Assembly: GCF_900167265.1 (NCBI RefSeq)
Contig: NZ_FUWT01000002.1
Location: forward strand, 396,770-420,769
Source of the DNA: Clostridium tetani
Lineage (GTDB): Bacteria; Bacillota; Clostridia; Clostridiales; Clostridiaceae
Direction: 5' to 3'
DNA: 24,000 bases
Both the position numbers and the translations under genes were made by a program. Of this stretch, positions 2,761 through 23,752 are shown in pieces; the first letter of the stretch is position 1, and each line of letters starts with the position of its first letter. Under the pieces are notes generated by a model. That model was given only the letters and a program-made list of their open reading frames with translations, made no database searches and was not told the DNA's origin.

Positions 2761-3168
2761 ATGAGTTCTATTAAATCAAGAGTAGCTTATCTAAGTGGAT
2801 TAATTGATGGATTAGAAATCGAAAAGGGAAGTAAAGAAGGGAAGATAATAAGAGAAATAGTAGATATTTTAGAAGATATAGGAGAGGAGTTTGAGGATAT
2901 TCAAGAATCTCAAAGAGAAATTCAAGAATATGTAGATGCATTAGATGAAGATTTATCTTTGATGGAAGATGAAATATATGATGAAGATGATGACGATGAT
3001 TTTGATGAAGAGGACATAGAGAATTTTATAAATTTAAAATGCCCAAACTGTGATGAAACATTGTACATAGATACTGCAATAATTCACAGTAAGGATAAAA
3101 TACTTTGTCCAAATTGCCGTAAGAATATAGATATAGACGTAGATTGTAATTGTGATTGTTGTGAGTAA
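2761..3168 (+). CDS. Conserved hypothetical acidic protein with C-terminal zinc ribbon
   Basis: 135 aa, GGAGGG RBS at 2750..2755. The central region is extremely acidic (EDEIYDEDDDDDFDEEDIE). The C-terminus has CPNC-x19-CPNC and a Cys-rich tail CNCDCCE. Function unknown. Confidence 0.7.
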   Translation: MSSIKSRVAYLSGLIDGLEIEKGSKEGKIIREIVDILEDIGEEFEDIQESQREIQEYVDALDEDLSLMEDEIYDEDDDDDFDEEDIENFINLKCPNCDETLYIDTAIIHSKDKILCPNCRKNIDIDVDCNCDCCE

Positions 3169-11499: not shown

Positions 11500-11549
11500 T
11501 AATGAACAATGAAGGATGATTTTCTTCCACAATTATTCATTGTTCATTA
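11500..11549. repeat. Perfect 14-bp inverted repeat (22-nt spacer) in the xseA-xseB gap
   Basis: taatgaacaatgaa (11500..11513) is the exact reverse complement of ttcattgttcatta (11536..11549). A further TTATTCATT copy lies at 11554..11562. Confidence 0.9.
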
Positions 11550-11581
11550 TTAGTTATTCATTAACAAAAGGGAGTGTTATT

Positions 11582-11806
11582 GTGGCCGCAAAAAAGGATA
11601 ACTATGAAGGATTAATAAAAGAATTAGAAGAAGTAGTTACCCAAATGGAGAATGGGGAACTTTCATTAGATAAATCTATGGACCTATATGAAAAGGGAAT
11701 AAAACTCAGCAATAAAATTTACAAAATATTAAACGATGCAGAGGGAAAGATAAAAATATTTACAGAAGAAGGAGAGAAAAACTTTTTACAAGAGGAAAAG
11801 AAATAA
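11582..11806 (+). CDS. xseB: Exodeoxyribonuclease VII small subunit
   Basis: ~74 aa from GTG 11582, 7 nt after AAGGGAG. 'LEEVVTQMENGELSLDKSMDLYEKGIKL' is the XseB core. The ORF-track ATG 11516 would add a hydrophobic extension across the hairpin and has no RBS. Confidence 0.85.
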   Translation: MAAKKDNYEGLIKELEEVVTQMENGELSLDKSMDLYEKGIKLSNKIYKILNDAEGKIKIFTEEGEKNFLQEEKK

Positions 11807-11831: not shown

Positions 11832-12701
11832 TTGAATTTAAATTCATATAAAGATGAAGTAGACACATGGTTAAAAGAATACTTTAAAGATAAGGGAACT
11901 TATAATAAAAGTGTGTATGAAGCTATGTCCTATAGTGTAAATATAGGGGGAAAGAGAATACGACCTATATTAGCACTAATTACGTATAAAATATACAATA
12001 AAAACTACAAAGAAGCCCTTTCAATAGCTTGTGCAATAGAAATGATACACACTTATTCATTGATACATGATGACTTACCATGTATGGATGATGATGATTT
12101 AAGAAGAGGCAAGCCAACTAATCATAAAGTTTTTGGAGATGGATTAGCAGTTTTAGCAGGAGATGGATTATTAAATGAGGCATTTAATATTATATTGAAA
12201 AACGGTTGCCAAAAAGGTATGACATGGGTTGAAGCTGGATACGAAATAGGAAAAGCTTCCGGAGTTGAGGGAATGATTGGAGGTCAAGTGGTAGATGTTT
12301 TAAATACAAACAAAAGTATAGAAATTGAAGAACTTGATTATATCCATGAAAAAAAGACTGCGGCTTTAATAACAGCGTCTATAATGACAGGGGCAATTCT
12401 TGGTGAAGCCAATGAAAAAGATACAACTATTTTAAAGGAATTTGGTAAAAAATTAGGTTTGGCTTTTCAAATAAAAGATGATATCTTAGATATTGAAAGT
12501 GATACAAGAAAGCTAGGGAAAACCATAGGAAAAGATAAAGAACAAAATAAAAATACTTTTGTTAAATTTTATGGATTAGAAAAATGCAAAAAAATGTGTA
12601 AAGACTTAACAAGTAGTTGCATAGAATTATTACAAAACATGAATAAAGACACTAAAGAATTAGAAGAAATCACTTTATATTTGTTAAATAGAGATTTTTG
12701 A
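11832..12701 (+). CDS. ispA: Farnesyl/geranyl diphosphate synthase (polyprenyl synthetase)
   Basis: First Asp-rich motif 'LIHDDLPCMDDDDLRRG' and second 'FQIKDDILD'. TTG start 8 nt after AGGAGG (11818..11823). Confidence 0.9.
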   Translation: MNLNSYKDEVDTWLKEYFKDKGTYNKSVYEAMSYSVNIGGKRIRPILALITYKIYNKNYKEALSIACAIEMIHTYSLIHDDLPCMDDDDLRRGKPTNHKVFGDGLAVLAGDGLLNEAFNIILKNGCQKGMTWVEAGYEIGKASGVEGMIGGQVVDVLNTNKSIEIEELDYIHEKKTAALITASIMTGAILGEANEKDTTILKEFGKKLGLAFQIKDDILDIESDTRKLGKTIGKDKEQNKNTFVKFYGLEKCKKMCKDLTSSCIELLQNMNKDTKELEEITLYLLNRDF

Positions 12702-12724
12702 TAGAATATAAACTTTTTTATTAA

Positions 12725-12793: not shown

Positions 12794-12822
12794 TTGACTG
12801 TAAGTGAAATTTATGATATTTT
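12794..12822 (+). promoter_or_regulatory. Candidate sigma-A promoter P2 just upstream of the structured RNA 5' end
   Basis: TTGACT (12794..12799), 17-nt spacer, TATTTT (12817..12822), a weak -10. This would put a transcription start a few nt before the terminal helix at ~12832. Confidence 0.3.
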
Positions 12823-12835
12823 TCTAATAGGAAAA

Positions 12836-13416
12836 GGTGGCACAGTATTCTAGTCAGGTAAGTATTTCTTGAAGGCGGGGCTAAAAATCCGCCAAAGGGC
12901 ATATCGATGAAGCTTCTGGTGCTGGCTTATGACGCCCAGTTATGGGCTGGTGCTGGGAGTAAGAAGGATGGGGCGGCCGCAATGGCATGCGCAACTGACC
13001 CTACCTTCATGGAGACCATTAATTGTGTTTTAGGTTAGTCGCCTATTGTACGATAATGGATTAAACCTGTATTGTGGTTAAAAGCTATGTGCAGTGTAGC
13101 CTGCCTTGAGTGATGTAGGGAGAGGTAATATCAACTTTAACCTTTGGCCAAAGGTTAAAGCTCTTGGTTACTGAAACCTACATTGCAAAAGAGGCTAGAG
13201 ATATACCTAACTGTCGAGGAAATCTCCTAGACTGTTCCATTTTGTATGAAGTGAATTAAGGATTATAGTGCGGACTAAGTGGTAATCCAGTCCTACTTAT
13301 TGGTAACAAAGTAGATAGGGTATTAAAGGGAAACCGTCAAAATGGCGACATTTTGGTTACTCTATGGGAAAGCCTACTGGACCTAAGCCGTAAGGTTTAC
13401 TTAATTTACTGCCACT
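12836..13416 (+). ncRNA. ole: OLE (ornate, large, extremophilic) RNA; boundaries approximate (+/- ~15 nt)
   Basis: The ORF track has no ORF of 60 aa or more in any frame across 12702..13445. G+C is locally high: I counted 32/60 for 12901..12960 and 34/60 for 12961..13020, against 10/60 for 12661..12720. A terminal helix pairs 12832..12842 (aaaaggtggca) with 13410..13420 (tgccacttttt). Many internal and nested helices are present. The synteny ispA-RNA-small TM protein-dxs-tlyA-nadK-argR-recN is the published OLE context. Confidence 0.8.
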
Positions 13417-13445
13417 TTTTTCTGGAAAATTTATGGAGGAGCTAA

Positions 13446-14021
13446 TTGGATAAGATAGTTAAGTCGAATAATAAAGAAAAGAAAAATGGTAAAAAGAATT
13501 CTAATAGTAAATGGATAGTTACTATTATATTTTGGACAATATTAATATCTGGAGGGGTAAGCCTTCTATCTGATATGCTACTAAGAAATGTAAATATATT
13601 AGTAGCTTTTATTATATTAATTTTTATTATTTCAATAGGTATAATTTTTGATATAATAGGGGTAGCGGTAACAGCTGCTGAAGAAAGACCTTTTCACTCT
13701 AAGGCTTCTAAAAAAGTTCCAGGTGCTAAGATAGCTGTTAAGCTTATAAGAAATGCAGATAAGGTATCAAACTTTTGCAATGACGTAGTAGGTGACGTTT
13801 GTGGAATAATAAGTGGTACTACAGGAGCTGTGATAGTTTCCAAGATTATAAAACAGACAGCTGGGTTAAATGTGACTTTAACCACTGCTATTATTGGATC
13901 TTTAATTGCAGCTTTAACTATAGGTGGCAAAGCCTGGGGTAAAAGTTTTGCAATAAAACAAAGCGAAATTATAATTGACAAGGTATCTAGAATAATTTAT
14001 ATTGTGAAAAAGGAACGATGA
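13446..14021 (+). CDS. oapA: OLE-associated protein A (small 4-TM membrane protein)
   Basis: 191 aa, TTG start 6 nt after GGAGGA (13435..13440). Lys-rich N-terminus ([17 protein letters not shown]) and four hydrophobic segments. It lies immediately 3' of the structured RNA and overlaps the dxs start, as described for oapA. Confidence 0.75.
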
Positions 14022-15880
14022 TAATGATTAATACTCTTGATAGGTACAAAGATGTTTATGATATAAAAAATATGTCTTTAGATGAACTAAATTTATTATC
14101 TAGAGAATTAAGAAATTTTATAATAGAAAGTGTTTCTCAAAATGGAGGACATCTTGCTTCAAATCTAGGTGTAGTAGAATTAACTTTAAGTTTATATAAT
14201 GTATTTGATTTTTCTTATGATAAATTAATTTGGGATGTAGGACATCAGTGTTATGTACATAAAATACTCACAGGAAGACGTAGTGGCTTCCAAAACCTTA
14301 GAAAAATAAATGGATTAAGTGGTTTTCCAAAGAGGTGCGAAAGTAAATTTGATCATTTTGAAACAGGTCATAGTAGTACCTCTATTTCTAGTGCTCTAGG
14401 TATGGCAAGAGCTAGAGATTTAAAAGGAGAAAACTATAATGTAGTTGCTGTAATAGGAGATGGAGCTTTAACAGGGGGAATGGCTTTAGAAGCCTTAAAT
14501 GATGTTGGAGATAATAAAACAAAATTAACAATAATTTTAAACGACAATCAAATGTCCATAGGTAAAAATGTAGGTGGATTATCTACATATTTAAGTAGTT
14601 TAAGAATAGATCCAAATTATAATAAATTTAAAAGAGATGTGGAGGGAATTATAAAAAAAATTCCTAATATTGGAAAGGGAGTGGCTAAAAACTTAGAAAG
14701 AGTTAAAGATGGAGTAAAACAAGTACTTGTACCTGGAATGCTTTTTGAAAATATGGGTATAAAGTATTTTGGACCTATAGATGGACATAACATAAAACAG
14801 TTAAGTAAGGTAATGGATAAAGCTAAAAATATGAAAGAACCTGTGATTATTCATGTTGTAACTACTAAGGGGAAAGGATATAAATTTGCAGAGCAGAATC
14901 CAGATAAATTTCATGGAATAGGTTCTTTTGATTACATGACAGGTTGCTCTAAAAAAAGTAAAGGGGTTACATATTCTAAAGCTTTTGGAAAAGCTATGGT
15001 AAGTATTGCATCTAAAGATAAAAGGGTAGTTGCTATAACTGCTGCCATGAAGGATGGAACGGGATTAAATGAGTTTTCAAATAAATTTAAAAATAGAATC
15101 TTCGATGTAGGTATTGCAGAGCAACATGCCGTTACTATGGCAGCAGGCATGGCAACAGCAGGATTAAGACCAGTCTTTTCAGTGTATTCTACATTTTTAC
15201 AAAGAGCCTACGACCAAGTATTACATGATGTATGCATACAAAACTTACCCGTAGTTTTTGCCATAGATAGGGCTGGATTAGTTGGAGAAGATGGAGAAAC
15301 TCATCAAGGAGTTTTTGATATGTCCTATTTATCTCATATGCCTAACATGACTATAATGGCTCCTAAATGTGTAGAGGAATTAGAATTTATGTTAAATTGG
15401 GCATTAAGCCAAGAGTCGCCTATAGCTATAAGATATCCCAAAGGTGAAAGTAGACTAAATTTAAAGCCTATTAAAAATTTTCAAAAAGGTAAATGGGAGG
15501 TTTTAGAAGATAAAGGCAAAATTTCCATTATTGCTACGGGCAGAATGGTGGAAAAGGCATTCAATGTGAAAGAAACTTTAAAGGAACGAAATATAGATAT
15601 AGGTTTAATTAATGCTACATTTGTTAAACCTATTGATAAAGAGATGTTAAATAAAATAATAGATGAAGAAAAAACTATAATAACTTTAGAAGATAATGTG
15701 ATCTTAGGAGGATTTGGAAACTCGGTATTGAATTATGTAAGAGATACAAATTCTAATATAAAGGTTGTTAACTTAGGATTTAAAGATGAATTCATACCAC
15801 ATGGAAAAGTAGATGATTTATTTAAAATGTATGGTTTGGATGAAGAAGCTATACTAAAAGAAGTTATGAAATTAATGTAA
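14018..15880 (+). CDS. dxs: 1-deoxy-D-xylulose-5-phosphate synthase
   Basis: 620 aa. '[14 protein letters not shown]', '[14 protein letters not shown]' and '[15 protein letters not shown]' form the TPP-binding region, plus a transketolase-like C-terminus. ATG 14018 (or 14024) overlaps the oapA stop (ATGA). Confidence 0.95.
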
Positions 15881-22141: not shown

Positions 22142-22268
22142 AGTAGGCGTACCAATGGTTTGAGAGATTTATGTATATACTGTGGGGGCAACAAATACAT
22201 TTTCAAATCAACAAACATATTTAAGTGTTTAACCTCTAATGTTTATAAAAATATTGGAGGTTTTTCTT

Positions 22269-23270
22269 ATGCTAAAAAACAATATTAATTATGCCATTGA
22301 CGATTTTATGTTTTATTGTCAGCAGAAAGATTTAAGACCTAAAACTATAGCGAGCTATGAATCTACTTTAAGATTATTTGCTAGATATTTAGAAGATACA
22401 TTTAGCATTAATAATGTAAAAGACATAACAGAAGAAATGTGTAAAGATTATATTACTTATACAAAGGAAAGAGGTAAATATACTTTTGTAGCAGATAAAA
22501 ATACTACTTTTATTAATCAACCTTCAAATAGAGAAGATTATGGTAAAAAGATTAGCACTACTACAGTTAATAATTATATAAGAAACTTAAAAGTATTTTT
22601 TAATTGGTGCATAGAAGAAAGAATTACAAATGTAAATAATATGCAAAGAATTAAACAGTTTAAGAATAATAGAATTTCAAAAGACCAATTAACAGATGAA
22701 GAATTTAAGAGATTAGTTAGATATTTGGATACTACAAAATACCACGAATTTAGAGATTATGTAATTATACAACTAATAATAGACACAGGTATGCGTATAG
22801 GAGAAACTTTGGCTTTAACAATAGATAATGTAGATTTAGATAGGAGAGCTATATTAATACAAGCAGAAATAAATAAAGGCAGAAAGGATAGATATGTATT
22901 TTATAGTTACACCATGTCCAGACTACTAAAAAGATGGATACAGTATAAAGATAGATATGTAGAATCGGATTTGCTGTTTTGTGTTAAAAGAGGAACCCAA
23001 CTACAAATTAGTAACTTTGAAAAGAATTTTAGTAAATACATAAAAAGAGCAAGAATAGATAAAAAGATAAGCCCACATACCTTAAGGAATAACTATGCTA
23101 GACGTTTTTTATTAGCTGGAGGGTCGATTTTCGATTTATCTAGAATTTTAGGACATAGTTCTGTTACTGTTACAGAAAAAGCATACGCCGATTTAACTAC
23201 AGAAGATATAAGAAAGAATTACCAACTTTTTAGTCCCTTAGAAAATATTGCAAAGGGAGGTAGAAGATAA
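22269..23270 (+). CDS. Tyrosine-type site-specific recombinase/integrase
   Basis: N-terminal SAM-like core-binding domain (FMFYCQQKDLRPKTIASYESTLRLFARYL). Catalytic residues are 'DTGMRIGE' (Arg), 'HTLRNNYA' (His-x-x-Arg) and 'LGHSSVTVTEKAY' (His and Tyr nucleophile). ATG 22269 follows GGAGG (22254..22258). Confidence 0.85.
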   Translation: MLKNNINYAIDDFMFYCQQKDLRPKTIASYESTLRLFARYLEDTFSINNVKDITEEMCKDYITYTKERGKYTFVADKNTTFINQPSNREDYGKKISTTTVNNYIRNLKVFFNWCIEERITNVNNMQRIKQFKNNRISKDQLTDEEFKRLVRYLDTTKYHEFRDYVIIQLIIDTGMRIGETLALTIDNVDLDRRAILIQAEINKGRKDRYVFYSYTMSRLLKRWIQYKDRYVESDLLFCVKRGTQLQISNFEKNFSKYIKRARIDKKISPHTLRNNYARRFLLAGGSIFDLSRILGHSSVTVTEKAYADLTTEDIRKNYQLFSPLENIAKGGRR

Positions 23271-23752
23271 TGGCTAAAAAAAGATTTTGGGAACATACAA
23301 AAACATACATTAAAGATATATTTTTAAGAAAAATCCTGCAAGCTAATCTATCTCCACAGGCAACAAAATTATTATTAATCCTTATGGGACATAAGAATAG
23401 CAATACAGGGCTGTGTAACCCTTCACAAGCACTTCTAAGCAAAGAAATGAATAGAAGTGTTAGAAGTATACAAAGATACTTGCAAGAGCTTGTACAAGCC
23501 GGAATAATAGCGATAGAACGTATTGGTAAAATGATTACTAATAAATATTTTCTGTTAGTAGATAAAGAATTGGAAGAATTTAAAGAACAATATGCAGATG
23601 CAAAGGAAACTACAAATAATATTAAAAATAAATGTAAATCTTATGCAAATAATTATAAAGATAGTAAGAAAAAAGATAGTTGGAATTATGAAGGGCAAAG
23701 GGATGCTAGTTATTATACGGATTTAGCAAAACGGCTATTAGGACATGTTTAG
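23270..23752 (+). CDS. Winged helix-turn-helix protein (plasmid/phage replication-initiator-like or regulator)
   Basis: 160 aa. 'LSPQATKLLLILMGHKNSNTGLCNPSQALLSKEMNRSVRSIQRYLQELVQAGIIAIER' is a typical wHTH of the type seen in Rep/DnaD-like N-terminal domains. The start overlaps the integrase stop (TAATG). The functional assignment is tentative. Confidence 0.55.
   Translation: MAKKRFWEHTKTYIKDIFLRKILQANLSPQATKLLLILMGHKNSNTGLCNPSQALLSKEMNRSVRSIQRYLQELVQAGIIAIERIGKMITNKYFLLVDKELEEFKEQYADAKETTNNIKNKCKSYANNYKDSKKKDSWNYEGQRDASYYTDLAKRLLGHV

What the first reader, a model, noticed from the sequence alone, without database searches (positions are those of the whole stretch)
12836..13416. ~580-nt ORF-free, GC-enriched, heavily structured RNA between ispA and a small membrane protein: an OLE RNA locus
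Seen directly: the 744-bp ispA-to-next-CDS gap has no ORF of 60 aa or more in any frame, in a window otherwise densely packed with genes. G+C jumps there: 32/60 at 12901..12960 and 34/60 at 12961..13020, against 10/60 at 12661..12720 (hand counts). The ends pair over up to 11 bp (12832..12842 with 13410..13420). The interior holds nested helices: 13097..13102 with 13192..13197 encloses 13110..13119 with 13177..13186, which encloses a perfect 11-bp hairpin at 13135..13160. Other local hairpins include GGCGG/CCGCC at 12874..12893 and GCCCA/TGGGC at 12934..12947. Established knowledge: OLE RNA (Puerta-Fernandez et al. 2006, Breaker lab) is a ~600-nt ornate RNA of anaerobic or extremophilic Firmicutes. 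It is typically found between ispA and oapA-dxs, in an operon with xseA/xseB, tlyA, nadK, argR and recN, which is exactly this arrangement. B. subtilis keeps the same backbone order (ispA-dxs-yqxC-ahrC-recN-spoIVB-spo0A) without the RNA. OLE forms a membrane-localised RNP tied to stress responses (short-chain alcohol, cold, Mg2+ and energy stress), and its biochemical mechanism is still unresolved. It is therefore the most biologically interesting object here, though it is a described class and not a new one.
Basis: partly seen in the sequence, partly recalled or inferred. Interest (0 to 1): 0.85.

Follow-up and report, generated by a model that had tools for sequence, protein, structure and literature searches.

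The report
Known OLE RNA of Clostridium tetani

Summary
Window 12821..13431 (+) matches Rfam RF01071 (OLE) end to end at 555 bits (threshold 50; E 1.7e-160). In a sequence-only alignment with 108 OLE RNAs from other genomes, the consensus structure pairs in 86% of cells, against 40-47% when partners are slid. 129 of 155 pairs show compensatory changes. GCCCA/TGGGC is not a stem, because GCCCA is the invariant L5 loop. The 13097/13192 register cannot be told apart from Rfam's. The dimerisation loops, GNRA loops and k-turn strands are present. The downstream 191-aa protein has the OapA hallmarks: four hydrophobic segments, DxxxD and a sub-threshold CNNM match. A homolog follows OLE in 106 of 107 loci. 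The window is 100% identical to C. tetani strain 1586-Z1, a species named as an OLE host in 2012. Verdict: a genuine, intact, already known OLE locus. The only local oddities are a 2-nt P13 bulge and no terminator before oapA. OLE's biochemical function remains unsolved, and this copy adds no new handle on it.

The parts
12794..12822 (+). Candidate proximal promoter of ole: TTGACT (12794-12799), 17-nt spacer with TG at 12814-12815, then TATTTT (12817-12822). It ends 12 nt before the first well-supported P1 pair (12835).
   Evidence: Consensus scan, (9 of 12 matches, TG present; the scan as a whole is not above chance). Across 107 OLE loci, promoter-like sites with at least 9 of 12 matches pile up 7-24 nt upstream of P1. 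A proximal promoter was shown experimentally in H. halodurans (PMC3413148). For this window it is an inference.
12821..13431 (+). OLE RNA gene (ole): full extent of the Rfam RF01071 match.
   Evidence: 555.2 bits, E 1.7e-160, model 1-616/616, not truncated. 150 of 155 consensus pairs are canonical in this copy.
12832..12842 (+). P1, 5' strand. It pairs with 13410..13420. The core of 7 well-supported pairs is 12835-12841 with 13411-13417.
   Evidence: 10 of 11 pairs show compensatory changes in 109 sequences (for example GC 55 / AU 43, and UA 61 / CG 27 / UG 19). The innermost pair 12842-13410 is not supported (62 of 109 unpaired); 13410 belongs to P12. This helix is not in Rfam's structure line.
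12843..12853 (+). P2, 5' strand: 12843-45 pairs with 13232-34 and 12849-53 pairs with 13227-31, with a 3-nt bulge UAU at 12846-48.
   Evidence: 96-100% of sequences pair. The helix is nearly invariant, with rare compensatory changes (UA to CG 11 times; CG to UA 3 times).
12855..12870 (+). P3 (12855-58 with 13210-13) and P3.1 (12864-70 with 13198-204), 5' strand. This long-range helix encloses domain 1 and is proposed in the literature to cross the membrane.
   Evidence: strong covariation (for example 12857/13211 GC 60, AU 37; 12865/13203 AU 37, GC 33, UA 14, GU 12). In this copy 13 of 16 stacked positions between 12855-70 and 13198-213 are canonical. The membrane-spanning proposal is from PMC12265935.
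12874..12893 (+). P4 hairpin (GGCGGG/UCCGCC) with the A-rich loop L4, GCUAAAAA (12880-12887). In the cryo-EM structures this loop forms the A-A dimer bridge B1.
   Evidence: 98.9% paired, 4 pairs covary; loop CUAAAAA conserved. Role from PMC12286853 and PMC12265935.
12894..12912 (+). P4a / J4a-5 strand AAAGGGCAUAUCGAUGAAG: the region of one OapA site and one strand of the k-turn bound by OapC.
   Evidence: near-identical in 109 sequences. Roles from PMC9723947 and PMC12286853. The 3-D motif itself cannot be tested here.
12913..12959 (+). P5/P5.1 hairpin of 20 bp, with the invariant loop L5 GCCCA (12934-12938), a dimer kissing contact.
   Evidence: 95.9% paired, 16 of 20 pairs covary; GCCCA in 109 of 109.
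12963..13008 (+). P6/P6.1 hairpin with loop L6 AUGGCA (12982-12987). It is the dimer partner of L5, and its internal loop is the proposed bS21 (RpsU) site.
   Evidence: P6.1 100% paired, 3 of 4 pairs covary; GGCA invariant. Roles.
13009..13015 (+). J6/7 AUGGAGA: the second strand of the k-turn according to the cryo-EM structure.
   Evidence: GGAG conserved; PMC12286853.
13016..13059 (+). P7, a hairpin of variable length (15 of 17 consensus pairs canonical here).
   Evidence: all pairs covary; the region varies in length between species.
13067..13094 (+). P8, a variable hairpin that is short in this copy.
   Evidence: The literature notes that P7 and P8 are dispensable in some natural variants.
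13103..13195 (+). P9 to P9.3 long arm: 13103-07 with 13191-95, 13110-19 with 13177-86, and 13125-44 with 13151-71. The tip is the perfect 11-bp hairpin 13135..13160, with the palindromic loop GGCC at 13146-13149 (L9.3, dimer kissing loop, bridge B3).
   Evidence: GGCC in 97 of 109 and the palindrome AGCU in 3, matching the palindrome-to-palindrome covariation reported in PMC12286853.
13196..13234 (+). 3' strands of P3.1 (13198-204), P3 (13210-13) and P2 (13227-34), around the small hairpin 13216-18 with 13224-26 (probably P10).
   Evidence: the hairpin is 99% paired, all 3 pairs covary. The name P10 is my inference from helix order.
13250..13410 (+). 3' domain (domain 2). Outer helix 13250-60 with 13400-10, then 13269-73 with 13388-92, then P12.2 at 13286-91 with 13376-81. 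P12.2 encloses the four-way junction with P13, P14/P14.1 and the P15 region 13366-75.
   Evidence: 94.8%, 97.4% and 99.7% paired; 10 of 11 pairs of the outer helix covary. Junction architecture from PMC7936274.
13293..13314 (+). P13 hairpin, the primary OapB site. The GNRA loop is GUAA (13303-13306). The bulge is 2 nt here (U13298, A13299) instead of the usual 1 nt.
   Evidence: loop GNRA in 108 of 109; single-nt bulge in 106 of 109 and 2 nt in 3, including the window. One search shows the extra base as an insertion. Requirements for OapB binding are from PMC7936274.
13315..13365 (+). P14 (13315-22 with 13358-65) and P14.1 (13336-44 with 13349-57), with GNRA loop GCGA at 13345-13348 (secondary OapB site).
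   Evidence: GCGA 59, GCAA 39 of 109; PMC7936274.
13410..13420 (+). P1, 3' strand (UGCCACUUUUU). Its U-run 13415-13420 continues directly into the 25-nt spacer before oapA.
   Evidence: No terminator-like site lies between OLE and oapA.
13436..14021 (+). oapA: ribosome-binding site GGAGG (13436-13440), TTG start at 13446 and stop at 14019-14021. The product is a 191-aa membrane protein, the OLE-associated protein A.
   Evidence: ORF; four hydrophobic segments at about 22-46, 50-80, 114-132 and 139-161; DVVGD at 113-117; Lys-rich N-terminus; homologs of 33-56% identity directly downstream of OLE on the same strand in 106 of 107 loci. D113, G116, D117, K162 and K166 are invariant; sub-threshold CNNM match (24.2 bits against a cut-off of 28.4; 31 of 44 homologs also match weakly). 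The defining features are from PMC11332333 and PMC12265935.
11832..12701 (+). ispA (polyprenyl synthetase), the upstream neighbour.
   Evidence: PF00348, 206 bits. Present upstream of OLE in 85 of 97 loci.
14018..15880 (+). dxs (DXP synthase), the downstream neighbour. Its ATG overlaps the oapA stop codon (ATGA at 14018-14021).
   Evidence: Present downstream in 70 of 91 loci.

Best explanation
This is the ole gene of Clostridium tetani, a complete, intact member of the OLE (ornate, large, extremophilic) RNA class, together with its obligate partner gene oapA.

Shown here: family membership, the full conserved architecture, the partner gene and the host species.

Inferred from work on other species:
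1. The roughly 590-nt RNA is made from a proximal sigma-A-type promoter ending about 12 nt before helix P1, and probably also by read-through from the xseA-xseB-ispA genes. With no terminator in between, the transcript continues into oapA-dxs.
2. It folds into two domains joined by the long-range helix P3/P3.1. Domain 1 is P4-P9; domain 2 is P1, P2 and P10-P15.
3. Two copies dimerise through the A-rich L4 loops, the L5/L6 kissing contacts and the palindromic GGCC loop of P9.3.
4. OapA dimers bind near P4a and hold the RNA at the membrane. K-turn-binding (OapC), GNRA-binding (OapB) and ribosomal (bS21) proteins may join where the species encodes them.

Most likely function (a hypothesis from the Breaker laboratory, not proven): the particle senses and responds to stress (short-chain alcohols, cold, excess Mg2+, poor carbon sources). 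In this view the RNA acts as the cytoplasmic regulatory module of the CNNM-like membrane protein OapA, the role that CBS and CorC domains play in the Mg2+ exporter MpfA/CorB.
For: Membership: 555 bits, full length; 150 of 155 consensus pairs canonical.

Conserved, covarying structure in 109 sequences aligned by sequence alone: (86.1% of cells paired against 40-47% slid; 129 of 155 pairs with compensatory change; covariation score 0.472 against 0.10-0.15 slid; 0 of 500 shuffles reach it).

Long-range helices P1, P2 and P3/P3.1.

Dimerisation and protein-site motifs present.

Strand-specific fold stability.

OapA hallmarks and adjacency.

Synteny.

Promoter position conserved across the family.

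No terminator between ole and oapA.

Species.

Literature for the inferred steps: promoter, stability and alcohol/cold phenotypes, PMC3413148; dimer and bridges, PMC12286853; membrane model and stress role, PMC12265935; OapB site, PMC7936274; OapC k-turn, PMC9723947; OapA-MpfA relationship and anticorrelation, PMC11332333.
Against: Nothing argues against membership. The weaknesses lie in the mechanism.

All functional data come from Halalkalibacterium halodurans, and all structures come from C. acetobutylicum and C. botulinum. None come from C. tetani.

The biochemical activity of OLE is unknown. The regulatory-module idea rests on a weak OapA-CNNM similarity: sub-threshold in Pfam, and a profile of 44 OapA homologs finds no PDB sequence at E <= 1.

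The promoter hexamers in this window are imperfect (9 of 12), and the promoter scan as a whole is not above chance.

P13 has a 2-nt bulge here, whereas a single-nt bulge was reported as critical for OapB binding. I could not check whether C. tetani encodes OapB or OapC.
Confidence: 0.97

Rival explanations
1. OLE works as a large ribozyme. The conserved core would catalyse a still unknown reaction at the membrane, and the proteins would serve only as scaffolds.
For: Size, structural complexity and the share of invariant nucleotides resemble those of large ribozymes, an argument made in PMC12265935 and PMC11332333. In alignment A1 more than 100 positions are invariant across 109 species, many of them in unpaired joining regions.
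Against: No catalytic activity has been reported. No splicing or self-cleavage products were seen in H. halodurans (PMC3413148). Many invariant loops are already explained as dimer bridges or protein sites. Nothing in this window bears on catalysis.
Confidence: 0.15
2. The element is a cis-acting leader (riboswitch-like or attenuator) that controls the downstream genes oapA-dxs, not a free-standing RNA.
For: It sits directly upstream of oapA on the same strand, with only 25 nt between P1 and the oapA start codon and no terminator. dxs overlaps the oapA stop codon. P1 is followed by a U-run (13415-13420).
Against: In H. halodurans, OLE accumulates as a single, very stable (half-life about 3 h), highly abundant RNA with its own promoter, and it acts in trans when moved to another locus (PMC3413148). 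In 8 of 109 relatives a separate terminator-like hairpin lies between OLE and oapA. That fits a discrete RNA product, not a leader. At 611 nt with about 25 helices it far exceeds known leaders, and Rfam types it as a gene.
Confidence: 0.04
3. The region encodes a small protein, for example the 43-codon ORF at 12907..13038, which starts at a conserved AUG preceded by AGGG.
For: The AUG at 12907 is present in 107 of 109 homologs, and a purine-rich AAAGGG lies 8-13 nt upstream.
Against: The reading frame from that AUG runs from 5 to 125 codons in different species (the modes are 7 and 18). Variability shows no codon periodicity (9.69, 8.67 and 10.15 at positions 1, 2 and 3). Conservation follows base pairing instead. 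The AUG lies in the conserved J4a/5 strand of the k-turn.
Confidence: 0.01

Closest known systems
OLE RNA (Rfam RF01071), specifically the OLE RNAs of Clostridium botulinum and C. acetobutylicum whose dimer structures were solved by cryo-EM (PDB 9LCR; Kretsch et al. 2025)
   Same: It matches the full-length model. It has the same helices P1-P15, the same invariant loops (L4 A-rich, L5 GCCCA, L6 GGCA, L9.3 GGCC), GNRA loops on P13 and P14.1, the same k-turn strands, the same genus, and the same neighbours (ispA upstream, oapA-dxs downstream).
   Different: Only copy-specific details differ: a 2-nt instead of a 1-nt bulge in P13, a short P8, the J6/7 sequence AUGGAGA (rare; 2 of 109), and no terminator-like hairpin between ole and oapA.
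OLE RNP of Halalkalibacterium halodurans (OLE with OapA, OapB, OapC and bS21), the only genetically studied system
   Same: It shares the RNA class, the adjacent oapA with a DxxxD motif and four membrane segments, a proximal promoter just upstream of P1, and the same gene cluster (xseA, xseB, ispA, dxs, tlyA, nadK, argR, recN).
   Different: The host is a neutrophilic, anaerobic, spore-forming pathogen, not an aerobic alkaliphile. Whether OapB and OapC exist in C. tetani was not testable here. No phenotype data exist for this species.
MpfA/CorB/CNNM Mg2+ transporters (a CNNM/DUF21 membrane domain followed by CBS and CorC domains)
   Same: OapA gives a weak match to the CNNM membrane domain (PF01595: 24.2 bits here, with 31 of 44 homologs matching). 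The literature reports structural similarity to CorB (PDB 7M1U) and an anticorrelated distribution of MpfA and OLE.
   Different: OapA has no CBS or CorC domains, carries a DxxxD motif that CNNM domains lack, falls below Pfam's threshold, and has no sequence-level PDB match. It is partnered with an RNA. Transport activity of OapA has not been shown.
Other ornate bacterial RNAs that form homo-oligomers (ROOL, GOLLD, raiA motif)
   Same: They are also large, highly structured non-coding RNAs of unknown biochemical function found by comparative genomics. ROOL and GOLLD also self-assemble through kissing loops and A-minor contacts.
   Different: No other Rfam family hits this window. ROOL and GOLLD are linked to phages and form cages. 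OLE is chromosomal, forms a dimer, localises to the membrane and binds proteins.

Membership tests
OLE RNA (Rfam RF01071) | Scores above the curated covariance-model threshold over the full model length | tested here: met
   555.2 bits against a gathering score of 50; E 1.7e-160; model 1-616/616; not truncated; the only Rfam hit in the window.
OLE RNA (Rfam RF01071) | An ornate secondary structure of about 25 helices, kept through compensatory changes across species | tested here: met
   150 of 155 consensus pairs are canonical in this copy; 86.1% of cells paired in 109 sequences aligned by MAFFT, against 40-47% slid; 129 of 155 pairs have changes on both sides. P1, P2 and P3/P3.1 are recovered by covariation.
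OLE RNA (Rfam RF01071) | A high share of invariant nucleotides in joining regions and loops (about 25% of positions more than 97% conserved) | tested here: met
   One search lists more than 100 invariant positions, all carried by the window sequence (it is the reference row). L5 GCCCA in 109 of 109, and J4a/5 and L6 conserved.
OLE RNA (Rfam RF01071) | Dimerisation elements seen by cryo-EM: the A-rich L4, the L5/L6 contacts and the palindromic L9.3 | tested here: met
   window L4 is GCUAAAAA, L5 is GCCCA, L6 is AUGGCA and L9.3 is GGCC. The family shows GGCC to AGCU palindrome switching, as reported in PMC12286853. Only the sequence motifs were tested; dimer formation itself was not.
OLE RNA (Rfam RF01071) | OapB site: P13 closed by a GNRA tetraloop, with a single-nucleotide bulge, next to P12.2 | tested here: inconclusive
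   The GNRA loop is present (GUAA at 13303-06) and P12.2 is present. However, the bulge is 2 nt (U13298, A13299), whereas 106 of 109 homologs have 1 nt. The effect on binding is unknown. OapB is absent from about 40% of OLE hosts (PMC11332333).
OLE RNA (Rfam RF01071) | K-turn at the base of P5 (J4a/5 with J6/7 or J5/6) for OapC | not testable with these tools
   The strands are conserved in sequence (CGAUGAAG at 12905-12; GGAGA at 13011-15). The 3-D motif and protein binding cannot be assessed from sequence here.
OLE RNA (Rfam RF01071) | Host is an anaerobic and/or extremophilic member of Bacillota | tested here: met
   The window is 100% identical over 6,576 nt to QMBH01, which is C. tetani strain 1586-Z1 (PMC6677821). 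Sporulation genes spoIIIA, spoIVB and spo0A are in the window.
OLE RNA (Rfam RF01071) | An oapA gene immediately downstream on the same strand (OLE and OapA are almost always found together) | tested here: met
   the ORF at 13446-14021 starts 25 nt after P1. A homolog is present in 106 of 107 OLE loci.
OLE RNA (Rfam RF01071) | Expressed as a discrete, abundant, stable, membrane-localised RNA | not testable with these tools
   This needs RNA-seq, a northern blot or fractionation of C. tetani. Only indirect support is available: a promoter-like site in the position conserved across the family.
OapA (OLE-associated protein A) | A small integral membrane protein with four predicted transmembrane helices | tested here: met
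   191 aa. Kyte-Doolittle windows of at least 1.6 cover about 22-46, 50-80, 114-132 and 139-161. This is a simple hydropathy scan, not a dedicated topology predictor.
OapA (OLE-associated protein A) | A DxxxD motif, which is distinctive of OapA and absent from CNNM domains | tested here: met
   DVVGD at residues 113-117. D113, G116 and D117 are invariant in 44 homologs. The motif definition is from PMC11332333.
OapA (OLE-associated protein A) | Distant, sub-threshold similarity to the CNNM/DUF21 membrane domain, without CBS or CorC domains | tested here: met
   PF01595 at 24.2 bits (cut-off 28.4), with no other domain; 31 of 44 homologs match weakly; no PDB sequence match, so the reported fold similarity to CorB was not reproduced by sequence. 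No structure prediction was run.
CNNM/MpfA/CorB Mg2+ transporter family | Passes the Pfam CNNM threshold and carries tandem CBS and CorC/HlyC domains | tested here: not met
   the score is below the gathering threshold and the protein is too short (191 aa), with no CBS or CorC domain. It is therefore not filed as an MpfA family member.

The most novel reading that the evidence does not exclude
In C. tetani the OLE particle may be wired slightly differently from the studied models.

First, the 2-nt bulge in P13 could mean weakened or lost dependence on OapB (3 of 109 copies have a 2-nt bulge, including this one; a single-nt bulge was reported as critical for OapB binding).

Second, there is no terminator between ole and oapA, and the long-range helix P1 is followed directly by U6. 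P1 plus the U-run could therefore act as a leaky, folding-dependent terminator. In that case correct closure of the whole 590-nt RNA would set the ratio of free OLE to oapA-dxs read-through.

Neither idea is excluded by my data, and neither is supported beyond the sequence features themselves.
Probability: 0.1. Interest if true: 0.4.

Novelty: already known. Interest (0 to 1): 0.2.

Why it matters
OLE is one of the largest and best-conserved bacterial non-coding RNAs whose biochemical function is still unknown. Recent cryo-EM work suggests it is a dimer that may cross the membrane, so the class itself is of high interest. This particular locus is simply the expected copy in a species already listed as a host, the tetanus pathogen. 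It is identical across sequenced C. tetani strains, apart from one SNP in one strain. Its value is as a positive control: the first-stage reader recognised a real, complex RNA gene from raw sequence. It does not open a new question.

Tried and rejected
1. Small-protein reading. The ORF from the conserved AUG at 12907 varies from 5 to 125 codons across species and shows no codon periodicity. Rejected.

2. It has no compensatory change, and its closing pair is unpaired in 53 of 109 sequences. The bases belong to loop L5 and the covarying P5.1 stem. Rejected as a structural element.

3. Both are nearly invariant (1 against 3 pairs with compensatory change). Left undecided.

4. A conserved U-tract after P1 as a family-wide terminator. 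There is only modest enrichment (the commonest value is 4 T in 8 nt, against 2-3 in a downstream control). Not a family feature.

5. A sequence-level link from OapA to solved CNNM/CorB structures. A profile of 44 OapA homologs against PDB sequences gave no hit at E <= 1. NCBIfam has no model for the protein. I ran no further search on it because the relationship is already published and is peripheral to the finding.

6. Whether C. tetani encodes OapB or OapC could not be checked.

7. The minus strand as the functional strand. It folds much less well (z = -3.09 against -6.75), and the Rfam hit is on the + strand. Rejected.
Full report
**Observation.** The polyprenyl synthetase gene (ispA, 11832..12701) is followed by 744 bp without a called gene before the next ORF at 13446. 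The longest stop-free run in any of the six frames of that gap is 58 codons. The hand-counted G+C values are exact: 32/60, 34/60 and 10/60. The region is 42% G+C in a window of 28.8%. The + strand folds to -213.6 kcal/mol, against -168.5 +/- 6.7 for dinucleotide shuffles (z = -6.75). The reverse strand reaches only z = -3.09.

**Identity.** A scan of the whole window against Rfam 15 returns a single hit. It is RF01071, OLE, at 12821..13431 on the + strand, with 555.2 bits (gathering score 50), E 1.7e-160, covering model positions 1-616 of 616 without truncation. When the consensus structure is threaded onto this copy, 150 of 155 pairs are canonical.

**Independent test of the structure.** I collected 120 loci from GTDB species genomes with an exact pattern from the most conserved OLE segment. 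All of them hold an OLE homolog by nhmmer. I aligned the 108 full-length ones with the window copy by MAFFT, that is by sequence alone (A1).
- The Rfam structure, which was not derived from these sequences, pairs in 86.1% of cells, against 40-47% when the 3' partners are slid by 1-3 columns.
- 129 of 155 pairs show changes on both sides.
- The covariation score is 0.472, against 0.10-0.15 for the slid versions, and no shuffle out of 500 reaches any measure.

**Helices that Rfam does not annotate.**
10 of 11 pairs have compensatory changes, with a solid 7-bp core at 12835-41 with 13411-17. This is P1 of the published model.
- A column-pair scan also recovers P2 (12843-45 with 13232-34, and 12849-53 with 13227-31).
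- The same scan recovers the long-range P3 (12855-58 with 13210-13) and P3.1 (12864-70 with 13198-204), the latter with rich covariation. These match the description of P3 plus P3.1 as about 12 bp enclosing domain 1 (PMC12265935).

- GCCCA/TGGGC has no compensatory change, and its closing pair is unpaired in 53 of 109 sequences. GCCCA is the invariant loop L5 of the 20-bp P5/P5.1 hairpin.
- The 13097-102/13192-97 helix competes with Rfam's 13103-07/13191-95 for the same 3' strand. Both are nearly invariant, so the choice stays open.

**Functional motifs.** I mapped published names onto the window using PMC12265935, PMC12286853, PMC9723947 and PMC7936274.
- P4 (12874-93) carries the A-rich loop that forms the A-A dimer bridge.
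- L5 (GCCCA, 12934-38) and L6 (AUGGCA, 12982-87) are the kissing contacts.
Its palindromic GGCC loop (13146-49) is the symmetric kissing loop. In my alignment it is GGCC in 97 of 109 sequences and the palindrome AGCU in 3, the switching pattern reported by Kretsch et al..
- The k-turn strands J4a/5 and J6/7 are conserved.
- P13 ends in a GNRA loop (GUAA) and P14.1 in GCGA. These are the primary and secondary OapB sites.
- The one deviation is a 2-nt bulge in P13 (U13298, A13299), whereas 106 of 109 homologs have one nucleotide.

**Partner gene.** The ORF at 13446..14021 has a TTG start, with GGAGG 6 nt upstream, and encodes 191 aa.
- It has four hydrophobic segments, a Lys-rich N-terminus and DVVGD at residues 113-117.
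- Homologs of 33-56% identity follow OLE on the same strand in 106 of 107 loci with room.
- D113, G116, D117, K162 and K166 are invariant in 44 of them.
- Pfam gives only a sub-threshold CNNM match (24.2 bits against 28.4), shared weakly by 31 of 44 homologs.
- This is exactly how the literature describes OapA: weakly CNNM-like, with a distinctive DxxxD motif (PMC11332333).
- A profile search of PDB sequences found nothing, and NCBIfam has no model.

**Context and host.**
- Pfam and NCBIfam identify the gene order: aroK-aroQ-(peptidase)-efp-...-spoIIIAA..AH-asp23-nusB-folD-xseA-xseB-ispA-[ole]-oapA-dxs-tlyA-nadK-argR-recN-spoIVB-spo0A, then an integrase and an HTH protein.
- The core arrangement is typical of the family: ispA upstream in 85 of 97 loci, xseA in 63 of 72, dxs downstream in 70 of 91 and tlyA in 59 of 63.
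- The exact OapA protein occurs on chromosomes of 2.75-2.81 Mb.
- The window is 100% identical over 6,576 nt to QMBH01, and its OLE is identical in five of six strains. One strain has a single SNP, 13116 T>C.
- PMC6677821 lists these accessions as Clostridium tetani strains (1586-Z1, Mfbjulcb2, 1240, COR1, C2).
- C. tetani is named as an OLE host in PMC3413148.

**How it is made.**
- A promoter-like site, TTGACT-17-TATTTT with TG at -15, ends at 12822, 12 nt before P1.
- On its own this is weak evidence. Across 107 OLE loci, however, such sites concentrate 7-24 nt upstream of P1, often as clear TGnTATAAT boxes. In H. halodurans a proximal promoter gives more than a 100-fold increase in expression, with 5' ends at the start of P1.
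- No terminator-like site separates ispA from ole, or ole from oapA. dxs overlaps the oapA stop codon.
- I therefore infer transcription from the proximal promoter plus read-through from upstream, continuing into oapA-dxs.

**Mechanism.**
- Shown here: family membership, intact architecture, the partner gene and the host.
- Inferred from other species: dimerisation, OapA-dependent membrane localisation, stress-response roles, and the idea that the RNA regulates the CNNM-like OapA in place of the CBS/CorC domains of MpfA.
- Rivals: a ribozyme function cannot be excluded but has no support. A cis-acting leader is unlikely, given the behaviour of OLE in H. halodurans and the separate terminator hairpins in some relatives. 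A small protein is rejected.

**Verdict.** The object is an already known RNA in an already known host, so novelty is nil and interest is low, despite the intrinsic appeal of the OLE class.

Noticed in passing
L041, L037, L082, L029, L020, L064, L023, L062: 7-12 nt after the 3' strand of P1 (for example L037 'GGGCTGATAGCTTAGCTATCAGCTTTTTT'): A terminator-like hairpin with a sequence-conserved stem, GCUGAUAG-loop-CUAUCAGC followed by U-rich sequence, sits between OLE and oapA in 8 of 109 loci from several Clostridia genera (Alkaliphilus, Gudongella, Dethiothermospora, C. thermobutyricum and others). Terminator stems usually keep their structure but not their sequence, so the conserved stem sequence is odd. 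The window has no such element.
   Followed up: partly
window 13298-13299: P13, the OapB-binding hairpin, has a 2-nt bulge (UA), whereas 106 of 109 OLE RNAs have a single bulged nucleotide. A single-nt bulge was reported as critical for OapB binding in H. halodurans. Whether C. tetani has OapB could not be checked.
   Followed up: partly
window 13116 (L122 = C. tetani strain 1240, QMBG01): This is the only OLE polymorphism among six C. tetani genomes. T>C at 13116 turns the U13116-A13180 pair of P9 into a C-A mismatch. OLE is otherwise identical across the strains.
   Followed up: no
window 22239-23752: Directly after spo0A lie a tyrosine recombinase (343 aa; XerC/XerD-like but far below the equivalog cut-offs) and an overlapping HTH_36/DnaD-N-like protein (160 aa). 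This may be the edge of an integrated mobile element or prophage.
   Followed up: no
window 11516-11806 (xseB): The longest xseB ORF is 96 aa, but the domain match begins at residue 24-30. Deposited annotations of identical DNA disagree: 96 aa in some strains and 74 aa in others. The real start is probably the downstream one.
   Followed up: no
window 14018-14021: The dxs ATG overlaps the oapA stop codon (ATGA), which suggests translational coupling of oapA and dxs. Some deposited annotations instead start dxs 6 nt later (618 aa).
   Followed up: no
L027, L030, L038, L107, L011 (record titles): Full-length OLE loci occur on contigs of MAGs labelled Actinomycetota, Fibrobacter, Deltaproteobacteria, Spirochaetia and Tenericutes. 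These are most likely binning or labelling errors, or RF39-type Bacilli in the Tenericutes case, and not OLE outside Bacillota.
   Followed up: no
L003 (Ammoniphilus sp. MAG): This is the only locus of 107 with room downstream of OLE where tblastn found no OapA homolog.
   Followed up: no
window 2761-3168: A 135-aa ORF between efp and spoIIIAA has no Pfam match.
   Followed up: no
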